Shown: positions 744 through 27,600 of the stretch, piece by piece
Layout: each line of letters opens with the position of its first letter
Numbering within the stretch: position 1 is the first letter of the stretch
Source of the DNA: a virus
Taxonomy: Duplodnaviria; Caudoviricetes
IMG/VR virus record: IMGVR_UViG_3300025151_000039
Location: 1-59,528 of that record
DNA length: 59,528 bases
Direction: 5' to 3' (one strand)
The notes under the pieces: model-generated
The model's input: the letters and a program-made list of their open reading frames with translations, nothing else
Told to the model about the DNA's origin: nothing
Database searches by the model: none
Program-made: the position numbers and the translations under genes

Positions 744-773
744 AACTTAAAATACTTATTCTTTAGTTTGCAA
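744..773 (-). promoter_or_regulatory. Putative promoter TTGCAA-N18-TAAGTT upstream of scaffold/capsid genes
   Basis: Same TTGCnn-18 bp-TAAGTT architecture as at 4650-4679 and 6085-6114. Confidence 0.6.
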
Positions 774-3056
774 ATCTTTTTTAGAATTATTTATTTCCAT
801 TTGAAGTTCTTTCTTTTTAGTGTCTACTTCATTATTCATAACGTTCCGAAGAAGTTTTTGCTTACCTTCTGTCTCAATATATTGTTTATTTAACCCGGAC
901 TTTACTTCTTCTTTCTTTTTATTTATTTCAACTTCTGCTTGCATGACTTTACCTTTAATACCAGCTTGAACAAGCTGTCTTTCAAGGGTTTCAATCGTGC
1001 CGTCCTTATCTTTGACCGCTTCAGAAAGTTGTTGAACTTGCCCCGATAACTGTGCATATAGTGACTTCCTTTGTACAATTTGCTCTTTATTTCTAATATC
1101 AGTTTCAGCTAAAACTGCAACATCATCAATCACTCCTTGCTGCAATAATTCTTTTAATTCAGCCAAGTAAGCCCATCTGTTAACTGGGAGAGTAGATCCT
1201 GATATAATCCTTACGTCAAATTTAGCTGCAGCATAATCTTTCCATTTTCCAATTGCTTCTCCCATATCATTGTAAATAGGAATATTAATTTCAGCTGTTT
1301 TCTCTTCCTGAATAGCATTTGGCTGGACAATTCTAAATACTTTATTAGCTGTATATACAACTTGAGAATATTGCTTAACCACTTCTCCTAGCTGTCTCAG
1401 TGCTGGCTCTATGCAGTTTTTCATCCAGTATTTAATTCTTCTAGTACCATACTCATCCATTGCAAGCATTCCTCTAAAGGTTTCATGTTGCTGCCCAGTA
1501 TCTCCTTGCATTGAAGAATAAATTCCTGCTAGATATTCCATATCTCCTTTACCCTGTTGTACTATTCCGAAAAATGCATTAGGTAATGGCATTGGCTGTA
1601 CTGGTGAAGGAGGTTGATGTCCTGGTCTGTATTTCAACATAGCTCCTGGAGATGATGAGTATTTTTCCCACTCATCTTCCTCTATAGCTCCTTCTTCGTA
1701 CATCCATCTCAAACTAGACCCTAAAGAAGCGTTATGTACTAATAATTGGTGAGCTTTATTTAATTCCTTTTGCTTTCCTATTAAAGGAGCAACTGCTGAC
1801 ATTGGGTAAGGTGTTCCAGTCCATTTGTAATGAAATGGAATTATAGGATAGTCAACTATTTTCTCATCTAATATTTTTTCATACAACAGAATATCTGAAA
1901 CAACACAGGTCTGCTTTATTCTAGTTGTATGATAAGGGATAGCGCTTATGACATTTTTTTGAAAAACTTCATCTTTTATTAAAATATCAAATTCTTTTTT
2001 AGAAATAGTAATGTTTTCAGTTTTAGAAGCTTGCTCTTGCAATTTAGCCATCATCTCTTGCTCAGCAATTTGAATCTGAGTTTGAGCTTCGTCTTGAGCT
2101 TTTCTTATTTCGAGCTCTGCTCTTTCTGGAAGCATTCCCCCGGATTGCACTGCTTGTTGTAAAGAAACCTGTGTTTCTTTTAATTTAACCTCCATCTCAG
2201 CCTGAAGAACAGATATTTGTTTTGAAAGTTGTTGTTTTATTTGAGTTAACTGTTCAGGGGATGGAGGAACTCTATGAAATACTGATACAAAAGGAACTTT
2301 AATTTTTTCAAACAATTCGTAAAGTTCAACCATTGCTTCTGTCTTCATTCCATCTTCCATATCGACAGGATCATCTGTATCATATATAGTAAAATCTTTT
2401 TGATCTGAATCTTTTGGTTTTACAGAGTAATCAAACTCTGAATAATTCATACTAGTGGCTTTGTTTATTTTAGCTTCCATTCCTGGGAATAACTGCTTTA
2501 CATGGGATTTAGGCAGCACTTTTCTAATCATAATATATGAAGCATCTTTAAAAAGTATATCTCTAGATTTAGGGTCTACGAATAGATCGAAAGGATGAGG
2601 TTGAATTATTTTAACCTCCCCTAAACCTCTATCTGCATCTGGATCCACTGTAACCTGTAAATAACCTACAGATTTATTAACAGCATCATTTATACAGTTC
2701 GATAGAAGAGTTTCTCCATGAGAATTGTGCCAAATATAATCAGCTATATCTGAAAACACTGCGGCTACATCTGAATCAGAACCATCTGCGCCTATTGCTT
2801 GCCATCTAGGGTTATTTGCAGTTGCATAGAAGTTTAACATTTCTATAATAGGTATAATTCTATTAATTGTAAATGTAGGCATACCTGCTTCTTGCAAAGC
2901 TGTTTTTTCTGCATTAGTAATTTGATTATCATTGGCAAAATCTTCACCCTTTTGATTTATAGCTTGCCACTGTACTCTCGTGCCATTATTTGCAGTATTG
3001 AATACTTCTCTAATTCTATCTGCTGCTTTTTTTCTCGCCATTATGCTATTACCCAA
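756..3056 (-). CDS. Portal protein (P22/podovirus-like, with long coiled-coil extensions)
   Basis: 766 aa, directly downstream of terL. Segments PTFTINRIIP, FVDPKSRD..F.DA.Y and LIGKQKELNK are typical of P22-like portals. Confidence 0.85.
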   Translation of the reverse strand: MGNSIMARKKAADRIREVFNTANNGTRVQWQAINQKGEDFANDNQITNAEKTALQEAGMPTFTINRIIPIIEMLNFYATANNPRWQAIGADGSDSDVAAVFSDIADYIWHNSHGETLLSNCINDAVNKSVGYLQVTVDPDADRGLGEVKIIQPHPFDLFVDPKSRDILFKDASYIMIRKVLPKSHVKQLFPGMEAKINKATSMNYSEFDYSVKPKDSDQKDFTIYDTDDPVDMEDGMKTEAMVELYELFEKIKVPFVSVFHRVPPSPEQLTQIKQQLSKQISVLQAEMEVKLKETQVSLQQAVQSGGMLPERAELEIRKAQDEAQTQIQIAEQEMMAKLQEQASKTENITISKKEFDILIKDEVFQKNVISAIPYHTTRIKQTCVVSDILLYEKILDEKIVDYPIIPFHYKWTGTPYPMSAVAPLIGKQKELNKAHQLLVHNASLGSSLRWMYEEGAIEEDEWEKYSSSPGAMLKYRPGHQPPSPVQPMPLPNAFFGIVQQGKGDMEYLAGIYSSMQGDTGQQHETFRGMLAMDEYGTRRIKYWMKNCIEPALRQLGEVVKQYSQVVYTANKVFRIVQPNAIQEEKTAEINIPIYNDMGEAIGKWKDYAAAKFDVRIISGSTLPVNRWAYLAELKELLQQGVIDDVAVLAETDIRNKEQIVQRKSLYAQLSGQVQQLSEAVKDKDGTIETLERQLVQAGIKGKVMQAEVEINKKKEEVKSGLNKQYIETEGKQKLLRNVMNNEVDTKKKELQMEINNSKKDLQTKE

Positions 3057-4624
3057 TCCTTTGCTTTACGCTTCTTTTTAGTAAATCCCTCTTTATTCTC
3101 TTCAAGCCCTTTTGGTGGATATGCAAATTTGCACGCATACGCAAGTCCATCAATTGCATCATCATGAGCCATTCTAGGTCCAAATGTTATAATCTCTCTT
3201 TGAAGTGAATAGTGAGTTTTTTTAATATGGATTTGACCCACAGAGAACCTTTGAGCAAGTATCTCTTGAATCCTATCCCTTTTTGACATTCTTGTTCCCG
3301 GTTTCTCTTCTCTCCACCTAAGGCTAAAATCGTTCCGTCTAAGGCTCTCTGCTCTGATTGCTTGGAAGAGAGGTTTTGACATTGTCGTGTCTTCAACCGT
3401 AAATACCCGTGGGTGATAAATCTTGTTGGTTTCATACATGTAATCCACAATTCCCTTCTTGTCAGAGCCAGGTATCCCCAGTACAGGCAAAGAACGCTTA
3501 CGTATATAGTCAAGCACATAAATGTTATTGTCCATATCCACTGCGACAGTAATAATAACGCTGAAATCACTATCTCTCCTTACCGAATCGGTTGCTGGAT
3601 CAACGCCAGAAAAAGTAAGCACTGGCTTAGCAGTACCATTAACAACAACATAGCTAATTCCCGACTCGTTATCATGTCGAAAATCACCTTCCCAGTATTT
3701 GATATGCTCTCTTGTAAAGATTGCGTCATCTTCACTTTGTACCTCCATAAGGTATTCTTGATAGAATTTTTGAGGTTGACCACTATCTGCATAGAACTTT
3801 TTCTTCCTTTCAATTTCTTCTTTAGGGAACCAACTAGGCCAAAGAATATTGCCTTTTTTATCAATAGCTTTTCTAAAAAATACATCCCAGCTAAAATCTT
3901 CATTCTTACTTAAGGCTTGTTCATGACCAACTATAAGATTATTAACAAAAGAGTCAAAATGTACAGGAGTACCATTGACCCTAAGACGGCCATCAGCAGG
4001 CTCCAAAGCAGGAAACACAACAGCAGTGACCAGAGTACTATTCTTATCGCGGGCCTCAGCGGTAATGGTATTATTTTCGTCTTCAAAATCATCCAAGACC
4101 ACAAGGTCGTACCTCTTGTGCAGCTTTGCTCCTCCTCGGATACCTGAGATATTTGATCTTGAGATGAGTTTCGACCCATCAGATGTCTCTATGTCCTGCT
4201 CTGTCCACTTCTTGCCCTTTATATCACCGAAGTAATACTTTATTTTTTCGTTATATTCTAGATGATGTTTAACATAGTCCATATTACCCGTTGCAAGTTT
4301 CTGTGTAGCTGATACCCAGCCATAAAAATAAGGACCTCCCTTCTCTGTAAAGCCCCACTCTTTAGCTTTTGCAGAAAATGCCAAGTCACGTACTATATCT
4401 GCTTTTGTAAATACAGTTTTACCGTGACCACGAGACATAATAATTGCTAACTGTCTTATGGATTTATCGTCTATTTTATCTGCTAATTCATAATGGAATA
4501 CAGGCGTTTCGGATCGCATAAAGTCTTCTGGCAAAAACAGCTTACCAAAAGATATTACATCATTAAATGCTTGTTTAAGGAGTAATTCTTCCTTAGAAAC
4601 GTTGTGAAAGTTTACATTTGCCAT
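3041..4624 (-). CDS. terL: Terminase large subunit
   Basis: Walker A SRGHGKT, Walker B VVLDDFE, coupling motif VNGTP, FYQEY, and nuclease motifs GVDPA and HDDAIDGLAY. Confidence 0.95.
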   Translation of the reverse strand: MANVNFHNVSKEELLLKQAFNDVISFGKLFLPEDFMRSETPVFHYELADKIDDKSIRQLAIIMSRGHGKTVFTKADIVRDLAFSAKAKEWGFTEKGGPYFYGWVSATQKLATGNMDYVKHHLEYNEKIKYYFGDIKGKKWTEQDIETSDGSKLISRSNISGIRGGAKLHKRYDLVVLDDFEDENNTITAEARDKNSTLVTAVVFPALEPADGRLRVNGTPVHFDSFVNNLIVGHEQALSKNEDFSWDVFFRKAIDKKGNILWPSWFPKEEIERKKKFYADSGQPQKFYQEYLMEVQSEDDAIFTREHIKYWEGDFRHDNESGISYVVVNGTAKPVLTFSGVDPATDSVRRDSDFSVIITVAVDMDNNIYVLDYIRKRSLPVLGIPGSDKKGIVDYMYETNKIYHPRVFTVEDTTMSKPLFQAIRAESLRRNDFSLRWREEKPGTRMSKRDRIQEILAQRFSVGQIHIKKTHYSLQREIITFGPRMAHDDAIDGLAYACKFAYPPKGLEENKEGFTKKKRKAKDWVIA

Positions 4625-4649
4625 ATATTTTAGCTAAAAACAGAAGCTT

Positions 4650-4679
4650 AACTTACAATTTTAAGCTATTTTATGGCAA
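4650..4679 (-). promoter_or_regulatory. Putative promoter TTGCCA-N18-TAAGTT upstream of terL
   Basis: Matches the repeated motif at 744-773 and 6085-6114. Confidence 0.6.
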
Positions 4680-4689
4680 TAAAAGAATT

Positions 4690-5103
4690 TTATCTTTTTA
4701 TATAGAGATCTTCCGGGCTAATCTTTGGAAGAGTTTTTTGATGATAAAGCATTGCTTCTTTATTTTGCTTTAAATAGTTTGGATTATTAGGAAAATGTGT
4801 TGCTCTATAATTTTCAACAGTTTTTTCCATATTTACAGCAGAATCATCATTTCTTTTCATATTATATAATTTTAAGAATAAATCGTGAGCAATCTTAGTA
4901 TGCTTACCATACTGCCCATCAGCGCTTATAACGTTAATATGAGCACCACCATGTTTATTTTGCTCAGTAGCAAACTCTCCTAATAACTCTTGCAGTTTTA
5001 AAACACTTTCAGGGTCGTCAGTATTTAAAGTCCTTGACGCTGATGCTACATCACTCATCAATCTAATTTTGTCTCTAGTCATCATCCATCTACCTTCACT
5101 CAT
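4690..5103 (-). CDS. Protein with putative peptidoglycan-binding (PG_binding_1-like) domain
   Basis: SVLKLQELL...ADGQYGKHTKIA resembles the V..LQ..L...DG.fG..T..A consensus. Confidence 0.5.
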   Translation of the reverse strand: MSEGRWMMTRDKIRLMSDVASASRTLNTDDPESVLKLQELLGEFATEQNKHGGAHINVISADGQYGKHTKIAHDLFLKLYNMKRNDDSAVNMEKTVENYRATHFPNNPNYLKQNKEAMLYHQKTLPKISPEDLYIKR

Positions 5104-5831
5104 TCTTCTAACTCCATAATTTTTTGTACAGCGTCTATACTTTCAGGTTTAAAGCCTTGGAAACCCACCATGGCTACACCAGATTGTTTAGTGCCTTTGT
5201 CTTCAATTTCTAATATATCTACTAGTTTTAAGAAGGCTTTTAAGCGCTCGCCGTCTTGACGTGCTGTTAAAGCTATGTCTCGTATACCTCTTAATACAAA
5301 GTCTTCATTGATACCAAGTTCTTTAAGTACTGGTTTTATCTCTTCTTTCACAGATTTCTTAATCCTTTCTGTCTTAAGTAAAAGCATTGCTTTCTTCTCT
5401 GCATATTTAGGATTATCAGTCTTATATGCATTCATGTAAGCCTTCACTGGATCTACTCCTTGAGCTATATATAAAGAAAATAACTCTTCTCTGCCATTAG
5501 TCTTTTCTCTATCAAATAACTGTTTTGAAGAAGTCTTAGCACCTCCAAAGCTATAAATATTGTGTCGCTTCTCTGTATCCATCTTGTTGGAATCTACCAC
5601 CATAAATGTTCCTGTACAGGTACCTACATATTCTCTTGCATGCCTCTTATGTTTCCTATGCGGTTTCATTTTGTTGCGACGTAAAATCTGTATATAACAG
5701 CCATCATCTGCTATGACCCAGTCTCCTATCTGACCTTCTCTCCAGTTAGCTTTGTAAATAAAGTTATCCGGTAGTTCGTCAGAGCTATCATATACTATGT
5801 GTTCTGTACCCTTGATACTGTATGTTCTCAT
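5100..5831 (-). CDS. terS: Terminase small subunit (with N-terminal extension)
   Basis: Upstream of terL. FSLYIAQGVDPVKAYMNAY...AEKKAMLLLKTERIK is HTH-like, and RLKAFLKLVDIL resembles the TerS oligomerisation helix. Confidence 0.7.
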   Translation of the reverse strand: MRTYSIKGTEHIVYDSSDELPDNFIYKANWREGQIGDWVIADDGCYIQILRRNKMKPHRKHKRHAREYVGTCTGTFMVVDSNKMDTEKRHNIYSFGGAKTSSKQLFDREKTNGREELFSLYIAQGVDPVKAYMNAYKTDNPKYAEKKAMLLLKTERIKKSVKEEIKPVLKELGINEDFVLRGIRDIALTARQDGERLKAFLKLVDILEIEDKGTKQSGVAMVGFQGFKPESIDAVQKIMELEE

Positions 5832-5834
5832 TAA

Positions 5835-6080
5835 TTATGCCTTCCGATTAAACGTAAAAAGCCCATTAGGGTGTCTTCGACGAATTTCACTCTTTTTTGC
5901 TGGAAAGCTTTAGATAATATTAAAAGCGATTCTCTATTTTTTATAGGCTTACGATCCTAGACTTTACTACGATTCAGAGAAGTTTGGTCAGGTAGATTAC
6001 CCCTCTCTGACGCCCTGCGAGCCCTTGGTATTGGCTGGTCAACTATTAACTGACAAGGCTGTTGTGGAGATTTCCAACGC
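5835..6080 (-). ncRNA. Structured ~250-nt 5' leader (or sRNA) upstream of terS
   Basis: No ORF. Stems on the minus strand: TCAGAGAGG/CTTCTCTGA, and CCTTG/CAAGG enclosing the hairpin GTCAGTTAATAGTTGAC. It begins just after the predicted promoter at 6085-6114. Confidence 0.45.
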
Positions 6081-6084
6081 GGAT

Positions 6085-6114
6085 AACTTACATAAATATA
6101 TATTCCAAAAGCAA
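6085..6114 (-). promoter_or_regulatory. Putative promoter TTGCTT-N18-TAAGTT driving the packaging module
   Basis: Third copy of TTGCnn-N18-TAAGTT, located at the strand-switch region. Confidence 0.6.
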
Positions 6115-6164
6115 GGTTTCAAAAATTGCCGGATTTTAATACGTGGTCTTATTTCATTTGTATA

Positions 6165-6179
6165 CCCCCTATAAGGGGG
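6165..6179. promoter_or_regulatory. GC hairpin CCCCCT-ATA-AGGGGG followed by a T-rich tract at the divergent strand switch
   Basis: Perfect 6-bp inverted repeat with a 3-nt loop; T-rich run at about 6192-6230. Function is inferred only. Confidence 0.35.
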
Positions 6180-6256
6180 ATTTCACTAACGTTTTTTCGT
6201 TATTTTTGATTTTGTTTTTTTAGGTTTTTTAGTCTAATTAAATAGGAGATAAATAG

Positions 6257-6565
6257 ATGAGCAAGTTTTACGGTGAGTTGAATGACAATAAAGCTGTGAA
6301 TGTAGATAATATTACGATTAGTCCTGCGCAAGCAAGACATAATATTAATGTAATGCTATTAAGATCACAGAAAGAATTGTCTGTTCAAGATCATATAAGA
6401 TTTACTAATGCTATCAAAGTTGAGCAAGATCCTCAAGATATGAAAGCAATGGAAGCATCATACGCAGCTGATGAGCGTAGAAAAATTGTTAAAGATATGA
6501 TTGCAAAAGGTAAATCTGAAAAAGAGATCAAAAGAGCTCTTAGAATTTATGATAATTGTGTTTAA
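6257..6565 (+). CDS. Hypothetical protein (first gene of the early arm)
   Basis: 102-aa ORF with AGGAG SD. Confidence 0.75.
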   Translation: MSKFYGELNDNKAVNVDNITISPAQARHNINVMLLRSQKELSVQDHIRFTNAIKVEQDPQDMKAMEASYAADERRKIVKDMIAKGKSEKEIKRALRIYDNCV

Positions 6566-6768
6566 AAAGTAAGTCATGACCCTGTAGTGATTAAAAGAGA
6601 GAGTAATCGAAGCTCTCTCTTCACTACTTGTATAGTAGTTTAGTTGATTCGATACTACTTGCACCATAACATGCTAGCTCGTACTTCTTCTCTCTAATGT
6701 ATCTATTATGTATATATGCTCTACATTCTCTAATATATATCTAATAAACACTACAATAAACTAGTGTA

Positions 6769-6829
6769 ACTCGTCACGGCGAGTATAAATAGCCACTTAG
6801 GCCGTGAGCGTTGATAATATCAGGTGTGG
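6769..6829 (+). ncRNA. Pistol self-cleaving ribozyme (predicted cleavage G6824|U6825)
   Basis: P1 ACTCG/CGAGT with loop TCACGG pairing to CCGTGA (pseudoknot), linker ATAAATAG, P2 CCAC/GTGG, TTAGG, GCG, P3 TTGAT/ATCAG, then a GT cleavage dinucleotide. This matches the published pistol consensus element by element. Confidence 0.93.
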
Positions 6830-7327
6830 AGATGCAATTGAACTATTTACTAAGTTAAGAGCGGACATGTCGCCGGGCATGCTTAGCAAAGTAATTAGAT
6901 GTAGATTGTATCAACATTAAATCAAGCTTTCATACCATACTAATATTACCTGTATGGACTCAATTTGAAAGAGGAGGATGTGCTGCCTTGAGAAAGCAGT
7001 GTAGTTAATCATAGCGTAGTGAACTATGTATCATGGTATTCATTAAAAGTATCGTAGCGATAACAAGCTCATACAGAATCGGAATACCACAACTGTTACG
7101 TTGTAAATATGATGTGGACGCGAGCCGAAAGTGCTCCACAGTGAACTCCCTGTTCTAGGGTTCATCGTTAGTGATGATTAAGGCGTGAGAATCGTGCGTC
7201 TAGAACAGTTTTATCAATAACTTGAGTTGTAACCCACAAGGCAGTTAATAGCTGACAGGGCAGTAGCAATAGCTGAGTCGCAATCAGTGAGCGTTTGGAC
7301 TGTCAAAGGGGCTCTACAATTTAAGTT
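6825..7327 (+). ncRNA. Large structured non-coding RNA 1 (~500 nt), family unassigned
   Basis: No ORF. Stems: GATGCAATT/GATTGTATC, CTTTCA/TGAAAG, CCATAC/GTATGG, TGGTATTC(7034)/GAATACCA(7082), CTGTTCTAG(7150)/CTAGAACAG(7200), AACTTGAGTTGTA(7219)/TACAATTTAAGTT(7315), TGACAG/CTGTCA. Confidence 0.65.
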
Positions 7328-7342
7328 CTAAAAGGAGGTGTA

Positions 7343-7534
7343 ATGTTAAAATTAATAACTTATGTTCCATTAGGTCTAATAAGTTTATTAGCAACTATTC
7401 CATTCTTATCTATAGCTTTCGATTACTTCTTTAAAGAAAGTTATTATTTAAGCTTCATGTTTTGCTTAATAGCATCATGGATAATAATAAACTTTATTCA
7501 CTTAATAATAGAGGAGTTTGAAATATGGAAATAA
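7343..7534 (+). CDS. Small membrane protein (2 TM)
   Basis: AAGGAGG SD; two hydrophobic stretches. Confidence 0.7.
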   Translation: MLKLITYVPLGLISLLATIPFLSIAFDYFFKESYYLSFMFCLIASWIIINFIHLIIEEFEIWK

Positions 7535-7641
7535 TGTTGCATGTATTATTATTATTTGGCTCAATTGCATTAGCAATAGGGATATTGTGGTTATTTTTAT
7601 TCTTAGTTATTAAATTATTTATGTTTTTAGAGCGATTATAA
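7525..7641 (+). CDS. Small single-TM peptide (38 aa, MEIMLHVLLLFGSIALAIGILWLFLFLVIKLFMFLERL)
   Basis: GAGGAG SD upstream; hydrophobic; below the ORF-track cutoff. Confidence 0.55.
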   Translation: MEIMLHVLLLFGSIALAIGILWLFLFLVIKLFMFLERL

Positions 7642-7697
7642 TGGGTGAAGAAAAGAGGGGAGTAGTACGAAACTAACGACTCTCCTCTCTTATTTAT

Positions 7698-7771
7698 AGC
7701 GGATGGGTGAAACGGAAAATCATACAAGCCTCATAAGCTTGTGATAGCAGGTTCGACTCCTGTGTCCGCTA
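7698..7771 (+). tRNA. tRNA with CAU anticodon (elongator Met or Ile2)
   Basis: Acceptor AGCGGAT/GTCCGCT+A, D stem GTGA/TCAT, anticodon stem CAAGC/GCTTG with loop CT-CAT-AA, T arm GCAGG-TTCGACT-CCTGT. No encoded CCA; G at position 8. Confidence 0.88.
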
Positions 7772-7798
7772 CTATTTTTAAAATAAAATGGAGGTATA

Positions 7799-7969
7799 AT
7801 GTCAGAACAACTGACCAATAAGAAGTTAGCTCAAGATAAAGGCTGTACTTCACGACAAATCAGCAAAAGTCGTAAAAGAGGCTGGATATGGGTTGAAGAC
7901 ATCGGTAAAGGTATTGGTGCAGTTAAGAAAGTTAATTATACAGCTCCTACAGCTGTGAGGAAGCCATAA
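7799..7969 (+). CDS. Small basic HTH-like protein (56 aa)
   Basis: GGAGG SD; MSEQLTNKKLAQDKGCTSRQISKSRKRGWI has an HTH-like pattern; TAATG coupling to the next gene. Confidence 0.6.
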   Translation: MSEQLTNKKLAQDKGCTSRQISKSRKRGWIWVEDIGKGIGAVKKVNYTAPTAVRKP

Positions 7970-8544
7970 TGACTGTAATAACTGATAAAACAACTATAAA
8001 AGAATCAAATGTTCATAAAGTTGATCCAATGAATGAAATCGTGTTAGTCAGAGGTCTTCCAGGGAGTGGTAAGACTACTGTAGCTAATATGATGTATAAA
8101 CCAAAATATATAAAGTATGCTGTTCCTGGAGTTCATTCTGCAGCAACAGATGATTGGTTTACTGATGATGAAGGCAATTATGATTTTAAACCTGCTGACC
8201 TAGTTGTTAATCATGCAGCTTGTCTAAATTGGTTTGAAAATAGAGTAAATAAAGCTATAGCAGCAAATACTATCATTGTTCATAATACTTTCACCATGTT
8301 TTGGGAGTTACATCCTTACATTTCATATGTGCAAGGGTTAGACACTTACAAAGATAGATTTAGAATTACCGTCATTGACATTTATGATGGTGGACTATCA
8401 GATGATGAGTTAGCAGAGCGTAATACTCATGGTGTAGGTGTAGAAGCTATTGGAAGAATGCGTGATCGTTGGGTCACATGGTCTTGGAAAGACTATGAGC
8501 ATTATGTTGGTGGAATTGAATCCCAGGGAAAGCGCTGGGCATAA
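7969..8544 (+). CDS. P-loop kinase, AAA_33 / N4BP2-type polynucleotide-kinase-like
   Basis: LVRGLPGSGKTT Walker A, TDDWF...Y.F, IIVHNTF...WE..PY and LAERNTHGV....I.RM..RW. Confidence 0.8.
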   Translation: MTVITDKTTIKESNVHKVDPMNEIVLVRGLPGSGKTTVANMMYKPKYIKYAVPGVHSAATDDWFTDDEGNYDFKPADLVVNHAACLNWFENRVNKAIAANTIIVHNTFTMFWELHPYISYVQGLDTYKDRFRITVIDIYDGGLSDDELAERNTHGVGVEAIGRMRDRWVTWSWKDYEHYVGGIESQGKRWA

Positions 8545-8720
8545 ATCTTAATAACGATTGAAAGATACCTCGTTGAGATGTGGTCATGGACCTGATTCGA
8601 CAGTACAGGGAATAAATGATTCAATCCTTATTATTCAAAGTTATTGAGCTCTTCGAGGGAAGTCGACGTCCTGACAAGAGCTTCATAACTCTTTTAAAAA
8701 TTAAATAGGAGGTATAAACG

Positions 8721-8846
8721 TTGGAAAATAACAACGAATCACCAAATTGGTGGCAAGATGAATACGAGCTTCAGCATCAAAAGCATGAGATTTCTTATGG
8801 AAAGTATCAACGAACTTATGAAATTTTAGGCTGGTATAAAATTTAA
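8721..8846 (+). CDS. Small hypothetical protein (41 aa, TTG start)
   Basis: AGGAGG SD 8 nt upstream of TTG; open frame MENNNESPNWWQDEY...GWYKI. Confidence 0.55.
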   Translation: MENNNESPNWWQDEYELQHQKHEISYGKYQRTYEILGWYKI

Positions 8847-9443
8847 CCCGAGTTGAGTGATAGGGTTAAAATTGCTATTAAGTTAGCATTTCTTAGGTTG
8901 GCTAGAACCAGTAGCGGTATCCTTGGACTGGGAGACAACGAGCCAGGTTTAGAGAGTCAACCTATAGATTTAAAATAATTAGTAGAAGTAAGCATTATCC
9001 GGCCAGGTAATGATTATTTTGTAGCATAATCCTGAGAACGATCTGTGGTGAGCAGCGCAGACTCAGGGCACACTTTATAGGTCTACAGGCCTATCTAATA
9101 TTGCTAAATGGTAGTATTAGCCTCGTAAGGGGATTGCGTAATACATGTACGGTAGCAGCAACTTAATATAGAAAAGTTGATCGTGGGAACTCAAAGCTGG
9201 GAGGACAAGGGAGTCCTAAGGTAGCTTAAACTCAATAAACAAAGTGACTTAATAGCGAGCAATTGCTAGTGGTCCTTTGCAGTAATGTATCTGAAGAGAT
9301 ATGAGCTGAGGTCAGTAATGATGAGAGGAGTTCGACGTGTGAAAGCACAACACCAAATATCCCGCTACTTGTTAGGTAACGATTTGAGAGAGTCAAAAGC
9401 TCCTCTATGCCCTATTTGTAAAGAATAGGTGAACTATCGGGTT
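8845..9443 (+). ncRNA. Large structured non-coding RNA 2 (~600 nt), family unassigned
   Basis: No ORF. Closing stem AACCCGA(8845)/TCGGGTT(9437); 14-bp stem TTGCTATTAAGTTA(8872)/TGACTTAATAGCGA(9245); TAGGTTGGCT/AGTCAACCTA; CCTGAG/CTCAGG. Several GNRA-capped hairpins: CCTC-GTAA-GGGG, TGCA-GTAA-TGTA, TCA-GTAA-TGA, GTGT-GAAA-GCAC. Confidence 0.7.
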
Positions 9444-9474
9444 TAAATCTAACTATGTGCTATTTATTTTATTA

Positions 9475-9704
9475 TTAACCGCCAGAGAGCAATGCAATCG
9501 TGTGCGGAAACTTGCTGGCATGCCAAGACAGAAGACTAGGAGCTCAGTCAGTATGTAAGTATGCCAATAATTAACGCCATTCCAATGGTGTTCAGACCAG
9601 GGGAAAGTGAGGTGTTCTAAATGTTACGCTTACCTAGGATGATAATAATTTCTGAGGTATAATCTACCAAAACAGAAGCCTTTCACCCCCTGCTCTGTGG
9701 TTAA
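9475..9704 (+). ncRNA. Structured non-coding RNA 3 (~230 nt)
   Basis: Closing stem TTAACCGCCAGAG/CTCTGTGGTTAA; internal GGCATG/TATGCC, ACGCCATT/AATGGTGT, GGGGAAAG/CTTTCACCCC. Confidence 0.55.
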
Positions 9705-9716
9705 AACAGGAGAACT

Positions 9717-9878
9717 ATGAGAACTGATTTTTATAATATAAGATCAAAATTACCATCTGAGTTTCATGTTAGATGTGAGACTGTAAAGTGTCCTAATTAT
9801 TACAATACTAAGTATAAAAATGCTAATGGCTATTGTAAACCTTGTAATGATAAAAGAAAAGAGAAAGGAAAGGCATAA
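9717..9878 (+). CDS. Small zinc-finger protein (53 aa)
   Basis: AGGAG SD; CETVKC...YCKPC; TAATG coupling to the next ORF. Confidence 0.65.
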   Translation: MRTDFYNIRSKLPSEFHVRCETVKCPNYYNTKYKNANGYCKPCNDKRKEKGKA

Positions 9879-10297
9879 TGGCTCAAGTTGGACCAGGTTT
9901 ATGTATTAAATGCAAGGTAAAACCTAGACCAAAAAGATCTGATAGGAAGAATGCTTGGAGATCTATATGCTGGGGTTGTGCAGAGAAAACAAGGCCTAAT
10001 AGAAAAAAAGTAACAACAAAACAAAGATTTCCTAAAATTCATAAAAGACCATTTAGTCTTATTTGTGATATTTGCAATATTAAACCAAAAATTAAAAGAA
10101 CTGATAGAGAAAATTCCTACAGAATTTATTGCAGTAGTTGTGCTGCAAAAGTGTATTACACAAACTTAGATAAAAATTCTGATGTTTATATATCTAGACT
10201 TATAAAATCAAATGGATATACAGGTGAAATAACTAAAGAATTAATAGAAACAAAGAGACTTTCTTTAATGCTTTTTAGAGCTTTAAAAAAAGTTTAA
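9878..10297 (+). CDS. Basic tandem zinc-finger protein
   Basis: Four CxxC pairs in two similar repeats (CIKC..R.DR.N..RSICWGCA / CDIC..R.DR.N..RIYCSSCA). Confidence 0.75.
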   Translation: MAQVGPGLCIKCKVKPRPKRSDRKNAWRSICWGCAEKTRPNRKKVTTKQRFPKIHKRPFSLICDICNIKPKIKRTDRENSYRIYCSSCAAKVYYTNLDKNSDVYISRLIKSNGYTGEITKELIETKRLSLMLFRALKKV

Positions 10298-10330
10298 TGT
10301 TAAACAACAACAACCAATAAAGGAGGCCAA

Positions 10331-10645
10331 ATGGCTGGAAGTAAAGTAATAACAACACCAAAGAACAATCGTTCTTTAATTCCTAAAACAACAGCAATTG
10401 CTTTAGATCAAATAGAGCAATTATCTCAAGGAAAAGGGGACGTAAGGACAGCTAATGCTGTAATGAGTGGTGTGAGAACTATCCATAACGCTATCAAATT
10501 ACAAATGACATTCTGTGAAAAAGCAGGTATTGCTATGACAGGTGTTGAATTTCAAGGTCCAGGTGGATCCGATAGGAAACCTCAAGTTTTAGGAGCTGCT
10601 AAAGCAACTAAAGTAAAGAAAAAGGTTTCTAAGAAAAAGAAATAA
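10331..10645 (+). CDS. Hypothetical basic protein with Lys-rich tail
   Basis: AGGAGG SD; C-terminus KKKVSKKKK. Confidence 0.75.
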   Translation: MAGSKVITTPKNNRSLIPKTTAIALDQIEQLSQGKGDVRTANAVMSGVRTIHNAIKLQMTFCEKAGIAMTGVEFQGPGGSDRKPQVLGAAKATKVKKKVSKKKK

Positions 10646-10838
10646 GGGGACTACGACTACCACACTTATGCATGGAGTCTATACCTCCTCCATGAACCAA
10701 CAGTAGTTCCCTCCTAATTACTTAGGAAGCGGAAAACGGATAGAATATAAGGCAGGCCCGGCAATTTAACACTGGGTTTTCATTTTCCTCCAGACTTTAG
10801 GGTCTGCCTTATTTAACGATAATTAAACAGGAGACTAA

Positions 10839-12779
10839 ATGGATAATAGTATACCATTCTTTCAATCTCAGGATAATCGTGGAGTTACTCAAAAAGCAGA
10901 AGCTTTATTACCAGATAATTTAGCTAGTTTTAGAGAAGTGACACTTTCTGATATTGAAAAGCAAGAGTTTAAATGTAAAGCTATTGCAACAATATTAAAT
11001 TACTTTCTAGGTTGGTATTTAAATGAAACTGATCTTCAAAGTAAACTGGGTCAATGTGAGACTCAAAGGGAAATTGAGGAAATATCTTCTATAAGACCTA
11101 TAAAATATACTGATACATTCAGAATGGCTCCTGGTGAAGCAAAGAGAGTGGCTGAAAGATTACAGTATATTCCATTAGTGTGGAGAGAAGATAGACTTGC
11201 TTATTATTATAATTACAGAGGTAGTAGAAATGTTTTACCTACTTCTAAATTGATCAAAAAGATCGACAGAAACCCTGCTGTCATAATTAATAAGTATAAA
11301 GTCAGGGGTAGTAGGAGCAATTATTACAATTCTACAAGAATGTTAGAAATTGCTAGTAATTTTTGGGATCCTGATTTTAATAATCAATGGGAACGATTGT
11401 TAGATCATCATCATAGAAATAACTATCCTGCAAGAGGTGTAGATAGAGATTATGAAGATTTAAGGTTAGAATATTTAATTAGATTTATTAGTCCAGGTAC
11501 TGTAGACTGGAATAATTATGATGGAGAGACTATCCAAAGTTCATACTATCAAAAAACTTCATTTGCTGCAGATTTATTCAACTATCTTAAAGATTCTTTA
11601 ACTATAAGAAGAAACACTCCTGAAATAGACTATTCTGACGAAGAAGACTATACAGAATTGAGAGAATTTCTTATAGAAAGATCTGAAGCTATGAATAAAG
11701 CCAATACTTTACTTAATGGAAAAGTTGAAATTACTGATGCTAGATTAATTAAAACAGCTCGTATGCTTAATATAGTATATAGAACTAAGTTAATTGAACC
11801 AAGTGTTATAATTAGACATCCTAGTGGTAATACTGATTACCCCGATTATGAACGTAAAGTAAAAGATGCTCATGGTGTAATTCATGATTTTATAGTTGGA
11901 ACTAGAGTGGGCATAGCTAAAACTTCAAATGGTTGGAGAGTTAGTAATATAAACATAGCTGGATACTCAACATCTACTCATCACAGGCCTGTATTATATA
12001 ATACTCACAATGTATTATCTAGGACTTCTAACAGCTTAAGACAAGTATTTGATGGAACTTCAGATTGTGTAGACTCTTTTGCAAATAATAATTGCTTTAG
12101 TGATCATGAGCCTACAATTAGAAGAAATACCAAAAAGCATGACTATCTTAGTCAAGGTTTGAATTTGCTAAGTTGGTATCAGATATATGTACCAGGAAGA
12201 ACTAATCCTTATGCTCAAACTAGAGATATATTCTTTGGTATTGGCAGAGATATTCCAGAATGGTATAAATCTCTTCATGACAGTGATACTAATTCTTGTA
12301 GATCTTTAATTAGAAGAAATTATGCTCATACTGTGGAGGGAAATCCAGCCCCTATATCTGAAATTGATGGTGAGATTTTAAAGAATATCAGCATTAATCA
12401 TTGCAACAATTGCTTTCATAGAAGCAGTGGAGCTGGTTGTGATGTGTTTGGCAGCATAGTTAGTAATAACTGGGGTGGAATCAATGAATATCAAAGAGTT
12501 ATTAGATCTTTAGATTCTGCAGAAGTTTGTGAACCAACTCCGGCAGCTATAGAAACTGTAGTTGAAGAAGTTTTAGGTTGTGAACACGGCAACTCTGGTC
12601 CTTCTAATTGTTTAGATTGCGATGAAGCTATAACAAATGGACTTACAGCTGCAGCGGAACCTGTATGTGAATCTATCACATTGGAAGAATCTATAGCTCA
12701 AAGAGTTGAGGAAGAAGAGGAAGCAGAACAGAGACGAATGATGGAACTAATGCAAGCCTGGAGTCAGGCAGAAAGGTAA
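10839..12779 (+). CDS. Multidomain protein with putative prokaryotic E2-like (UBC-fold) domain and Cys-rich C-terminus
   Basis: First gene of an operon with JAB, E1 and Ubl. NNC419FSDHEPTI...DY....LL.W...Y....TNPY resembles the Cys-plus-helices end of divergent prokaryotic E2s. HCNNC...C and CEH...CLDC clusters follow. The E2 call rests mainly on context. Confidence 0.5.
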   Translation: MDNSIPFFQSQDNRGVTQKAEALLPDNLASFREVTLSDIEKQEFKCKAIATILNYFLGWYLNETDLQSKLGQCETQREIEEISSIRPIKYTDTFRMAPGEAKRVAERLQYIPLVWREDRLAYYYNYRGSRNVLPTSKLIKKIDRNPAVIINKYKVRGSRSNYYNSTRMLEIASNFWDPDFNNQWERLLDHHHRNNYPARGVDRDYEDLRLEYLIRFISPGTVDWNNYDGETIQSSYYQKTSFAADLFNYLKDSLTIRRNTPEIDYSDEEDYTELREFLIERSEAMNKANTLLNGKVEITDARLIKTARMLNIVYRTKLIEPSVIIRHPSGNTDYPDYERKVKDAHGVIHDFIVGTRVGIAKTSNGWRVSNINIAGYSTSTHHRPVLYNTHNVLSRTSNSLRQVFDGTSDCVDSFANNNCFSDHEPTIRRNTKKHDYLSQGLNLLSWYQIYVPGRTNPYAQTRDIFFGIGRDIPEWYKSLHDSDTNSCRSLIRRNYAHTVEGNPAPISEIDGEILKNISINHCNNCFHRSSGAGCDVFGSIVSNNWGGINEYQRVIRSLDSAEVCEPTPAAIETVVEEVLGCEHGNSGPSNCLDCDEAITNGLTAAAEPVCESITLEESIAQRVEEEEEAEQRRMMELMQAWSQAER

Positions 12780-24623: not shown

Positions 24624-27600
24624 TTATTTTGTACAAGATTTAGATATTTTTCTATAAAACTCAGCGCCATCTCTAAGGATTTCTTTCCTTTTCTTAAAGC
24701 CTAATTTACGACTTCTACCCATAAACTCATTCTCAACAATTTGATCATTTTTAAGCTTTTTAGACCTGTTGTTAACTATAATATCACTAACACCCTCTGG
24801 ACCTCTTTGCGAAGCTCTAATGTCTTCAGCATATCTATAGGCATCCGTAGGAGATAGGTATCTTTCACCATTAATAAATTCGTTAATAGCTCTTATCTGA
24901 TGATCAGCTCCAAGGCCAGTCTTAACATCTCTATTTAATGATGCATTTTTAAGTCTATTCATTAGTCGATTTTTAGGATTATAAGAGAAGTCCATATTCA
25001 TTAAAGGAAGTCTATCATAACTATTATTCATATATGCACGACTCTGCATAGAAATAACCTTTCTTAATACATCTCCAAACATCATTGCCGTATCATGGTG
25101 TAGCTTAGTAAAATTGGTTTTATTACTAGCTTCATTCAAGTAGGTCATAACCGCTTTAGAGATCCCTGGGACTTCATAATAAGCGGCATCATAAGCATCG
25201 TAACCATCATGTATCTTATATTGAGCAACAACCTTTCTATTTATCTCAGGAGAAAGCATTCGATATACAAGCGCTTCTACTGCTAAAGGATCTGTAGGGC
25301 TAATACTTAGACCGTGTTTAGTTTGATTTCCACCTGTTAAATATTGATGAACTAAATTCCTTCTAGCAACACTTAACGCCATAGGATCTCCTTTGTGCAC
25401 ATCTGTTAAAGCGCTAAATTCATCTCTAAAAGAATCATAAAGAGGTTTAATTACAGACTCCATCTTGTTTCTATCAAAAACAACGTCTCCGCTTGTTGGC
25501 ATTGTATTAAAGGCTTGGTATTTTGATTTTAATATCCTGTTTTGCTCGGGATGAGTAATTTCAAATCTTCTTCCATTCATTATAGCGATGTCACTTTTTG
25601 CAATAGGAAGCCTATTAGTAGAGCCTTTTCTAATAACCTGCTTGATATTCTTACCCTTACTATCCCATACTACGTAAGTGTTCTTACCAGCATTATACTC
25701 ATTAGCTCCAAAACCCTTATTAAATGTAACTTTATTAATATCTTGCATTTTATCTATTTCAGACCCAAGTACCATCTGTAAGTCAGAGGCAGCTTCATTT
25801 AGTTCATTTAGGGATTTTCTAACACTTTGAAGTTCTGCCTCTCTATCGTACTTAGAATTTGATAAATAGCTTTCTTGCGATTTTAAATATCTTATTTTAT
25901 CATTAAGTTTTGATAGTTCAACAAAAGAGCCTTCTTGTTTGACATATTTATATAAATCTGAAGCTAATGTAGATGAATAATCAGTTTCATTTAATAGCTT
26001 ATTTTCAGCTTGAAGTAGTATTTTAGATATTCCAAACGTATCATTTGCATTTTTTCTGCTATAATTAGAGTTATATATCCTAGCTAATTGATCAGTAGCT
26101 ATGTCAAAAGGATTTCTTGATATTTTAAAATAATCCTGAACCTGCTTAATGCCTGAAGTAAGATCTACAGAAAGATCTGTATCGTCTGTCTTCCCAAGCT
26201 TTGTATTCCAGTTATTCTTAGGATCAAAAGAGTTCTCTAAGTCTAATCTTCCAAAGTAAATATCTTTTAACTTTAAAGCTTTAGATGATACACCATCAGA
26301 AACTTCACCTCTATTATATCTTAAATATTTTGATAACGGAGATATTACTTTAAAATTAATAAAATCTCTAACACTATCTCTATCTCTAATAGAAAGAACT
26401 TTTTGCTCGTTTTTGGTATCAACCATTTCAAATATGCCATTAAAATCTCTACCTGCTTCACTAGACCAAGATCGTCCTTTTCTAGTACCAAAGAATATGT
26501 CACTTATAAACATCTCTATCTGGTCTGCAGATGGCGGTTTTTCATAACTATCAATAAACTCTTTTGTAGCGCCAGATATTTCGCCAACAGCATCTAAATA
26601 AGCATCAACATCTTTCATTCTTAATGTATACTCTTGAGTACCCATCTTAACTCTTCCTAGCTCACCATTCATCCCAATTGCATTTTGGAGATATGTAAAT
26701 ATATTATGAAGCTTAACAAATCTTCCTCTAGTAACCAGCGACTGCTGTTGAACACTTCCCCAGTTCCTTATATCAGCACTGTTCTGAATGTTTGTATCAA
26801 ACCTTTCTAGTAATAAATTTAGATTAGATTGACGAGCTCCATAACCACTTCTAGCCGCTGCCTCAAAAAGCAGGCGAGAAGGCATTGCTCCGTAAGCGCT
26901 TGATTTGTCAAAGTCAAAATCTGCATCTTGTGGAGATATTGCATCTATTATATTCTGACGCCCAATATTACCTACATCAGTATGCTCCTCGACATAATTA
27001 ACCGCTTGATCTTTTAATTCTCTTATAAGTTTTTTGTGAGCATCGCTACCCTCTATATATATGACCTTATCATCACCTCTCCTTTTACCATCTTTGTTGA
27101 TAAACATATCTCGCAATATATAAGAGCCATCTTTTCTGCGTTTAATCTTTTTAGCGAATCTTAATTTACCACCTCTAGCTATTGCCCCTTGCTGCATTGA
27201 CTCTAGCTGTCTTTGAGCTTCTATTGGAATATAACGGTTATTCAGGCCTGGAGACACAATCCAAATATCCAGAGGCTCGCCATCTGCTGATTTTATAGTA
27301 GGATGCTCTCTCATATCTACATGAACATCATATATTTTTTTACCAGAGCTATCACGATACACAGAACCTTTTGTTCTTCCTTTTGGATCAAGAGGGAGTA
27401 CATCTCCTTGAACACCTGCTCCTTTTGTTTTAGAAGGAGGTACTACTTTGTTAATAACAATATCATTTATCTCATTACGAGGCTGTCTATTATTAGCCAT
27501 TCCTATGTTAATCTTGTTTGTAAAACCAAGGTTGTCAATTAAGTTTTGAACTTGATAGTTGGTCAAAGCAACTTCTTCTCCATGCTCTGAAGCTTTGCGA

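What the first reader, a model, noticed from the sequence alone, without database searches (positions are those of the whole stretch)
8845..9443. Unassigned ~600-nt ncRNA 2 rich in GNRA tetraloops
Seen: the ends pair with each other, a 14-bp long-range helix (8872/9245) encloses a ~360-nt domain, and at least four GNRA-capped hairpins occur. Known: GNRA loops typically mediate tertiary or intermolecular contacts in large ribozymes and ornate RNAs, and the size is similar to ROOL/OLE. Inference: a compactly folded RNA, possibly a new class or a distant ROOL/GOLLD relative.
Basis: partly seen in the sequence, partly recalled or inferred. Interest (0 to 1): 0.75.

Follow-up and report, generated by a model that had tools for sequence, protein, structure and literature searches.

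The report
New large structured RNA in marine phage
A marine phage carries a gene for a folded RNA of about 475 bases that matches no known RNA family and sits where related phages carry the giant GOLLD RNA, so it is a candidate new class of large phage RNA whose function is unknown.

Summary
There is a real structured non-coding RNA here, but its coordinates are about 8985-9460 (+), not 8845-9443.

- **Homologues:** two were found, L005 (67% identity) and L122 (90% identity). Similarity starts near 8972 and ends near 9460-9498.
- **Structure:** on the 3-sequence alignment, 151 predicted pairs are 95% paired. 42 pairs change on both sides, against 15.7±3.1 in shuffles and 3-8 in slid controls.
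- **GNRA hairpins:** 6 by pattern, against 0.42 expected.
the end pairing and the 8872/9245 helix are complementary only in this genome. They lie outside the conserved part and are not kept in the homologues.
- **Expression:** contigs from four marine RNA libraries (four studies) span only 8988-9460. This is a weak hint of a discrete transcript.
- **Coding:** no reading frame is conserved.
- **Known families:** no Rfam family matches, even at E≤10, including GOLLD, ROOL, OLE, introns, RNase P and tmRNA.
- **Context:** 6 of 17 related phage loci carry GOLLD in the same early region. This phage and L005 carry this RNA instead.

Best reading: a new family of trans-acting large phage RNA, perhaps self-associating through a conserved GGCC loop. 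Function is unproven.

The parts
8985..9460 (+). The structured non-coding RNA, about 475 nt (corrected extent)
   Evidence: The conserved block shared with L122 and L005 starts near 8972 and ends near 9460. RNA-library contigs span 8988-9460 at most. Of 151 predicted pairs, 42 change on both sides.
8971..8976 (+). -10-like hexamer TAAAAT, 8 nt before the first stem base. Candidate promoter element (inferred).
   Evidence: TAAAAT, TAAAAT and TACAAT stand at the same place in the window, L122 and L005. It is listed with TTTAGA at 8948-8953 as a 9-of-12 promoter-like site. The -35 is poor in L005. A rival reading pairs 8972-8983 with 9459-9470 (helix 1).
8985..9020 (+). 5' hairpin. The six-base loop 9000-9005 is CGGCCA, containing the palindrome GGCC.
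   Evidence: 14 pairs, 4 of them changed on both sides (helix 2). The loop reads CGGCCA, CGGCCA and UGGCCA in the three genomes.
9024..9458 (+). Body closed by helix P1 (9024-9028 GCAUA with 9454-9458 UAUGU)
   Evidence: 5 pairs, 3 changed on both sides, 100% paired (helix 3).
9031..9132 (+). Domain I: P2 (9031-9036/9062-9067 and 9042-9045/9058-9061, invariant stem with a variable tip), P3 (9077-9083/9088-9094), P4 (9095-9105/9110-9120), P5 (9121-9124/9129-9132, GUAA loop)
   Evidence: Helices 4-8. All 4 pairs of P5 change on both sides. P2 never varies.
9151..9369 (+). Domain II, closed by P6 (9151-9156 GGUAGC with 9364-9369 GCUACU). It contains P7, P8 (9187-9192/9328-9333), P9, P10 (GCAA loop 9259-9262), P11, P12 (GUAA loop 9315-9318) and P13 (GAAA loop 9341-9344), plus invariant joining strands.
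   Evidence: P6 appears in the separate single-sequence folds of the window and of L005 and in the 2-sequence consensus. It is invariant, so covariation does not test it. Helices 10-19 cover the rest.
9371..9453 (+). Domain III, closed by P14 (9371-9377 with 9447-9453). It contains P15 (9380-9383/9436-9439), P16 (9386-9393/9399-9405, absent in L005) and P17 (9411-9417/9423-9429, GUAAA loop 9418-9422).
   Evidence: Helices 20-23. The absence of P16 in L005 is seen.
8845..8984 (+). 5' part of the finding that is not part of the conserved RNA (local hairpins and a 41-codon ORF at 8853-8978)
   Evidence: No similarity to L122 or L005. z = -1.96.
7698..7772 (+). Context: tRNA-Met, 1.2 kb upstream. 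In relatives GOLLD abuts this tRNA.
6769..6829 (+). Context: Pistol self-cleaving ribozyme, 2.15 kb upstream
   Evidence: 57.8 bits against a gathering score of 34.5.

Best explanation
Window 8985-9460 (+) is a stand-alone gene for a stable, highly structured non-coding RNA of about 475 nt. It belongs to a family that is not in Rfam and is carried by an uncultured lineage of marine tailed phages.

**Fold (shown).** A 5' hairpin with a conserved YGGCCA loop is followed by a body closed by helix P1. The body holds three multi-helix domains, with four conserved GNRA tetraloops and one GUAAA loop. Four stems (P2, P6, P13, P14) and several joining strands are invariant.

**Mechanism (inferred).**
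- It is transcribed early in infection from its own promoter; a -10-like element lies at 8971-8976.
- Its 3' end is trimmed back to the base of P1.
- It acts in trans as a compact folded RNA particle, in the manner of GOLLD and ROOL, whose place it takes in the early-region RNA island of this phage lineage.
- The GNRA loops would make the tertiary contacts, and the palindromic GGCC loop is a candidate for a symmetric kissing contact between copies.

What it acts on in the cell is unknown.
For: **Conservation**
- Homologues are L005 (66.7% over 403 nt) and L122 (90.3% over 534 nt).
- The flanks are not alignable.
- Proteins flanking the RNA in the window and L122 are only 37-67% identical.

**Structure**
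- 151 pairs are 95.2% paired. 42 pairs change on both sides, against 15.7±3.1 in shuffles (0 of 500 reach it) and 3-8 when partners are slid.
- The two-sequence consensus already gave 33 of 110 pairs changed on both sides.
- Independent folds of the window and of L005 give the same layout.
- GNRA enrichment: 6 against 0.42.

**Variants in RNA-library contigs.** Of 20 substitutions, 8 are unpaired, 9 keep the pair and 3 break it.

**Expression (weak hint).** Six contig pieces of 195-477 nt, from four RNA libraries of four studies, begin at 8988-9002 and end at 9436-9460. There is one 9-nt loose end. The DNA assemblies (window, L122, L005) run on past both ends.

**Not coding.** A 2-nt indel and other indels break every frame.

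**Not a known family.**; ARAGORN.

**Context**
- GOLLD is present in 6 of 17 related loci, in the same early region and orientation.
- GOLLD is absent from this phage and from L005.
- Palindromic GGCC loops are intermolecular kissing loops in OLE and GOLLD (Kretsch et al. 2025, passages read).
Against: - There are only three genomic copies, and two are 90% alike, so the covariation rests mostly on one divergent comparison.
- The RNA-library evidence is from assembled contigs. It shows neither strand, nor level, nor true ends, and no DNA run was laid beside it.
- The promoter is a consensus match only, and the -35 is poor in L005. A rival pairing, 8972-8983 with 9459-9470, shows 4 both-side changes. 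If real, the primary transcript starts further upstream.
- All copies carry GGCC, so the loop shows no swap between palindromes. Self-association is therefore untested.
- The invariant helices P2, P6, P13 and P14 carry no covariation evidence.
- L005 and L122 have no tRNA in the DNA held, so the tRNA link typical of GOLLD and ROOL is weak here.
- No function was tested.
Confidence: 0.6

Rival explanations
1. A protein-binding decoy or regulator RNA. The folded RNA would sequester or mimic a substrate of a host factor, such as a defence nuclease, RNA polymerase, a ribosomal protein or a tRNA-modifying or tRNA-cleaving enzyme, as part of early host takeover. It would not form an RNA-only assembly.
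For: It lies in the early region among small ORFs. A weak Lar-like restriction-alleviation match stands 0.4 kb downstream. Invariant joining strands and loops could be protein contact sites.
Against: No neighbouring protein is shared by the three loci that carry the RNA, so there is no candidate phage partner. Many GNRA loops point to RNA-RNA tertiary packing more than to a simple sponge. Nothing was tested directly.
Confidence: 0.2
2. A large ribozyme, either self-processing or acting on another RNA. The invariant joining strands and stems would form its active site.
For: The size, the multi-domain fold, the invariant unpaired stretches beside freely covarying stems, and ends at the base of a closing helix are all compatible with it. 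The same genomic island carries small self-cleaving ribozymes: Pistol here and twister-like elements in L122 and L002.
Against: There is no match to group I or II intron, RNase P or any other ribozyme model. No split gene lies around it. No cleaved or joined form was seen (no joints). There is no chemical evidence.
Confidence: 0.1
3. A very divergent member of GOLLD or ROOL.
For: It is phage-encoded and large, it lies in the region where relatives carry GOLLD, and a tRNA-Met lies 1.2 kb upstream.
Against: No GOLLD or ROOL hit at E≤10, with relaxed filters, on a 741-nt slice. Model R1 of the central domain hits none of the GOLLD loci. The GOLLD consensus motifs and layout are absent. The length is about 475 nt, against more than 800 nt for GOLLD.
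Confidence: 0.04
4. Not an independent RNA: a 5' leader or cis-regulator of the downstream genes, a small-protein gene, or an intron.
For: It runs in the same direction as the early genes. ORFs of 41-54 codons overlap it.
Against: - The ORFs are not conserved; the frames are broken by indels.
- In L005 a terminator-like hairpin follows the RNA.
- The flanking genes differ among the three loci, so there are no conserved exons and no conserved regulated gene.
- No intron model matches.
Confidence: 0.04

Closest known systems
GOLLD RNA (Rfam RF02032)
   Same: A large, many-helix RNA of tailed phages. It occupies the same early region, divergent from the terminase genes, in 6 of 17 related loci. 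Marine GOLLD examples lie next to tRNA-Met (passages). GNRA and kissing-loop contacts and palindromic loops occur in GOLLD.
   Different: No sequence or model similarity. About 475 nt against more than 800 nt. A different layout: a 5' hairpin and a P1-closed three-domain body, against a variable 5' half and the conserved 3' half seen. It does not abut a tRNA.
ROOL RNA
   Same: Similar size class (about 500-600 nt), phage-encoded, ornate, and known to act without an identified protein partner (passages).
   Different: No hit by any Rfam model at E≤10. ROOL is described mainly from rumen and Firmicutes phages near tRNA islands. No shared motifs were seen. Whether Rfam 15 holds ROOL under the accession I recall was not checked.
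OLE RNA
   Same: Large and ornate. A palindromic GGCC-type loop in OLE makes a symmetric dimer contact (passages).
   Different: OLE is a bacterial chromosomal RNA of extremophilic Firmicutes with protein partners. There is no model match here.
Group I/II introns, RNase P RNA, tmRNA
   Same: Size range, a closing helix that joins the two ends (as in RNase P), and GNRA loops.
   Different: No model match. ARAGORN finds no tmRNA. There are no conserved flanking exons.

Membership tests
GOLLD (RF02032) | Match to the covariance model of the conserved 3' half (gathering score 150 bits) | tested here: not met
   No hit at gathering, nor at E≤10 in 5500-11000 or 8780-9520. The same model scores 158-183 bits in six related loci.
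GOLLD (RF02032) | Conserved 3'-half layout and motifs (long first hairpin, A/U-rich linker, long-range pseudoknot, terminal hairpins) | tested here: not met
   The consensus printed was compared by eye with the structure. No shared motif or order of helices was seen. R1 hits no GOLLD locus.
GOLLD (RF02032) | Phage-encoded, next to or enclosing tRNA genes | tested here: inconclusive
   Phage-encoded: yes. tRNA-Met lies 1.2 kb upstream with two ORFs between. There is no tRNA in L005 or L122.
GOLLD / ROOL | RNA-only homo-oligomeric cage | not testable with these tools
   This needs native gels, SEC-MALS or cryo-EM. Only a conserved GGCC loop is seen.
ROOL | Match to the Rfam covariance model | tested here: not met
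   No family other than two chance-level hits at E≤10 (CRISPR-DR36 at 19.7 bits, sR16 at 13.4 bits).
OLE | Match to the Rfam covariance model; Firmicutes chromosomal context with the partner-protein gene | tested here: not met
   No hit. The context is a marine phage.
Group I / group II intron | Model match and interruption of a conserved gene | tested here: not met
   No model hit. The flanking ORFs are unrelated among the three loci. No joined form was seen.
RNase P RNA / tmRNA | Model match; tRNA-like end with a tag frame (tmRNA) | tested here: not met
   ARAGORN finds only two tRNAs in the window.

The most novel reading that the evidence does not exclude
This is a further, unrelated class of self-assembling RNA-only particle. 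A marine-phage RNA of about 475 nt would oligomerise through its palindromic GGCC loop and GNRA contacts and would be functionally interchangeable with GOLLD in the same genomic island. Phages would then have invented the large-RNA-assembly solution at least three times. Together with the unassigned ~500-nt stretch upstream of tRNA-Met and the ~210-nt element found in nine related loci, the island would be a swap-site for such RNAs.
Probability: 0.25. Interest if true: 0.85.

Novelty: new variant of a known kind. Interest (0 to 1): 0.7.

Why it matters
Large ornate bacterial and phage RNAs are few: GOLLD, ROOL, OLE, raiA and HEARO. Their functions are an open question. Recent cryo-EM showed that GOLLD and ROOL build RNA-only cages.

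This RNA has no detectable similarity to those families, yet it occupies the GOLLD position in sister phages. That offers a natural comparison for asking what such RNAs do. Whatever GOLLD provides, this RNA may provide by another fold. At about 475 nt it is also small enough for structure work. Its presence in marine RNA libraries from several studies suggests that it is made in the sea.

Tried and rejected
**Homologue hunting**
- blastn (distant mode) of 8545-9720 against GenBank phages: no match.
- blastn and nhmmer against 80 loci of terminase relatives: only L005.
Two were protein look-ups: one search found no relative of the ATPase, and one search gave 80 terminase loci. Six were motif patterns and returned 39 stretches in all. 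Six of the 39 were the L005 contig. The other 33 gave no nhmmer match: 3, 3 and 27.
- The single metagenome scan gave 5 stretches: the L005 contig again, the new L122, and 3 chance matches.
- The single genome scan gave 1 chance match, in an Anaerolinea record.
- Whole records of five relatives: no homologue, only two 14-15-nt chance matches.

**Remote homology**
- R1 gave a 17.7-bit hit in L039 (E 0.015, rough).
- That region proved to be a separate conserved element of about 210 nt. Its own model, R2, finds 9 of 82 sources but not the window, L005 or L122.
- I therefore rejected homology between the two.

**Partners and flanks**
- No partner protein: the ATPase at 7969-8544 and the other neighbours are not shared among the three loci.
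- No flanking repeats that would mark a mobile element: only one 13-nt direct repeat, and no inverted repeats.

**Tertiary pairing**
- Candidate tertiary pairing: 9073-9078 with 9418-9423 is compatible in all three sequences, but the changes are on one side only. I left it as a lead.

**Sequencing runs**
- The flanks 8300-8987 and 9461-10000 had no cover in the four RNA libraries. The related phages in those samples may have unlike flanks, so I do not count this as evidence.

**Literature**
- Searches (listings and abstracts) name no such RNA.
- I read passages of Fremin et al. 2023 and of Kretsch et al..
This RNA may be listed there unnamed.

Full report
**Setting.** The window is a complete 59.5-kb virus record. 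It encodes a P22-like portal and large and small terminase subunits on the - strand at 756-5831. A long run of + strand genes starts at 6257. The best terminase matches among cultured phages are at or below 25.7% identity, so the lineage is uncultured. Between the terminase genes and the replication-type genes lies a region poor in ORFs. It holds a Pistol ribozyme (6769-6829), tRNA-Met (7698-7772), a 191-aa ATPase ORF (7969-8544) and then 1.2 kb without a convincing ORF (8545-9716). The finding lies in that last stretch.

**Homologues and true extent.**
- Of 80 loci fetched around relatives of the large terminase, only L005 holds a similar stretch. It is 66.7% identical over 403 nt, at the same distance and orientation from the terminase gene.
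- Pattern scans of IMG/VR returned only that contig plus chance matches.
- The one metagenome scan added L122, which is 90.3% identical over 534 nt (window 8970-9498).
- In the three-way alignment, similarity begins near 8972 and ends near 9460.
Both homologues carry compensatory changes there.

**Structure.**
- RNAalifold on two sequences gave 110 pairs, 33 of them changed on both sides. On three sequences it gave 151 pairs.
- Counted independently, 95.2% of cells pair. 42 pairs change on both sides, against 15.7±3.1 in shuffles (0 of 500). Sliding the partners by 1-3 columns gives 3-8 such pairs.
- Single-sequence folds of the window and of L005 reach the same layout.
- The layout is a 5' hairpin (8985-9020, loop CGGCCA), a closing helix P1 (9024-9028 with 9454-9458), and three domains: 9031-9132, 9151-9369 and 9371-9453.
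- Stems P2, P6, P13 and P14 and several joining strands are invariant, while their neighbours covary freely. That pattern suggests tertiary or functional constraint. It also means those four stems are untested by covariation.
- P16 is missing in L005.
- Caveat: two of the three sequences are 90% alike, so most of the signal comes from one divergent comparison.

**Variants and expression.**
- Of 24 runs listed for 8700-9720, 7 are on record as RNA, and 13 studies are named.
- I laid four RNA libraries from four studies on 8300-10000. They gave six contig pieces of 195-477 nt. The pieces start at 8988, 8988, 8999, 9002, 9192 and 9208 and end at 9175, 9205, 9436, 9456, 9459 and 9460. There is one 9-nt loose end and there are no joints.
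Contigs show neither strand, level nor true ends, and I laid no DNA run. The DNA assemblies I hold (window, L122, L005) do continue past both ends.
- The contigs differ from the window at 20 substitutions. 8 are unpaired in the model, 9 keep the pair and 3 break it. One of the three that break a pair lies beside a 7-nt insertion at the tip of P3.

**Not coding, not an intron.** ORFs of 41-54 codons overlap the element, but indels that are not multiples of three break each frame in L005. The genes on either side differ among the three loci. There are therefore no conserved exons, no conserved downstream target and no shared partner protein. In L005 a terminator-like hairpin follows the RNA.

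**Ends.** A -10-like hexamer (TAAAAT, TAAAAT, TACAAT) stands 8 nt before the first stem base in all three genomes. I read this as a promoter, by inference. A rival reading pairs 8972-8983 with 9459-9470, with 4 both-side changes in A/U-rich sequence. That would place the start further upstream, with later processing.

**Comparison with known families.** No Rfam family matches at gathering, at E≤10 in 5.5 kb, or at E≤10 on a 741-nt slice, where the filters are lax. ARAGORN finds no tmRNA. The useful surprise came from the relatives:
- GOLLD (RF02032) scores 158-183 bits in 6 of the 17 related loci scanned: L002, L007, L008, L018, L057 and L068. It lies in the same early region and orientation, and in several loci beside tRNA-Met.
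- The window and L005 have no GOLLD.
- A model of the central domain of the present RNA (R1) finds only the three known copies in 82 sources, and nothing in the GOLLD loci.
- The GOLLD consensus printed shares neither motifs nor helix order with this RNA.
- So this RNA is not a GOLLD member, but it occupies GOLLD's niche.

Between the window and L122 the RNA is 90% identical, while the neighbouring proteins are 37-67% identical. This points to strong constraint or to exchange as a cassette.

**Mechanism.** Shown: a conserved, covarying, GNRA-rich fold. Present as contigs in RNA libraries: yes. Inferred: a trans-acting compact RNA made early in infection that works as GOLLD and ROOL do. Kretsch et al. 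(passages read) report that GOLLD and ROOL form RNA-only cages held by kissing loops and A-minor contacts, and that palindromic loops such as GGCC make symmetric contacts in OLE and GOLLD. The conserved YGGCCA loop of the 5' hairpin is thus a concrete candidate for self-association, but it shows no swap between palindromes here. I give about 0.9 to 'a real structured RNA gene', about 0.8 to 'a family not yet described in Rfam', and about 0.25-0.35 to 'self-assembles'. The rivals are a protein decoy or regulator, a ribozyme, a divergent GOLLD or ROOL, and a leader, coding region or intron.

**Novelty.** Four literature searches name no such RNA.

Noticed in passing
window 6769-6829 (+); L122 15-66 (+); L002 4841-4928 (-): Small self-cleaving ribozymes stand in the same early region. 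The window has a Pistol ribozyme (57.8 bits, above gathering). L122 and L002 have twister-P1-like matches (54.5 and 54.9 bits, below the gathering score of 67.2, E about 1e-10). Pistol in the window and twister in L122 both lie about 2.1 kb upstream of the large RNA. In L002 the twister match lies in or just before the 5' half of GOLLD.
   Followed up: partly
window 6830-7342 (+): About 500 nt without an ORF lie between Pistol and a small hydrophobic ORF (7343-7534), upstream of tRNA-Met, where relatives carry GOLLD. The stretch 6830-7697 folds with z = -3.98. It has no Rfam hit and no similarity to any fetched locus. It may be another unassigned RNA.
   Followed up: partly
L039 700-900 (-), and L013, L069, L020, L044, L036, L023, L035, L042: A separate conserved non-coding element of about 210 nt lies in the same early region of more distant relatives. 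It occurs in 9 of 82 sources by model R2. 14 of 38 predicted pairs change on both sides. The six of these loci that were scanned gave no Rfam hit at gathering.
   Followed up: partly
window 9508-9702 (+) and L122 2959-3163: A non-coding block downstream of the RNA and upstream of ORF 9717-9878 is 72.6% identical between the two genomes. It may be a leader or a further small RNA.
   Followed up: no
L005 5655-5735 (-): Just upstream of the RNA in L005 there is a stretch with a perfect T-arm-like hairpin. ARAGORN and Rfam call no tRNA there. It may be a decayed tRNA.
   Followed up: no
window 10839-12779 (+): A 646-aa ORF has no Pfam or PHROG match, yet it is conserved in L122 (37%), L002 and L007 (27-28%).
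   Followed up: no
window 24624-33986 (-): A very long ORF of 3120 aa lies in the structural gene block. It was not examined.
   Followed up: no
window 8948-8960 and 9384-9396 (+): A 13-nt direct repeat (12 of 13 identical) links the region just before the RNA with helix P16, the helix that L005 lacks. It may be chance.
   Followed up: no
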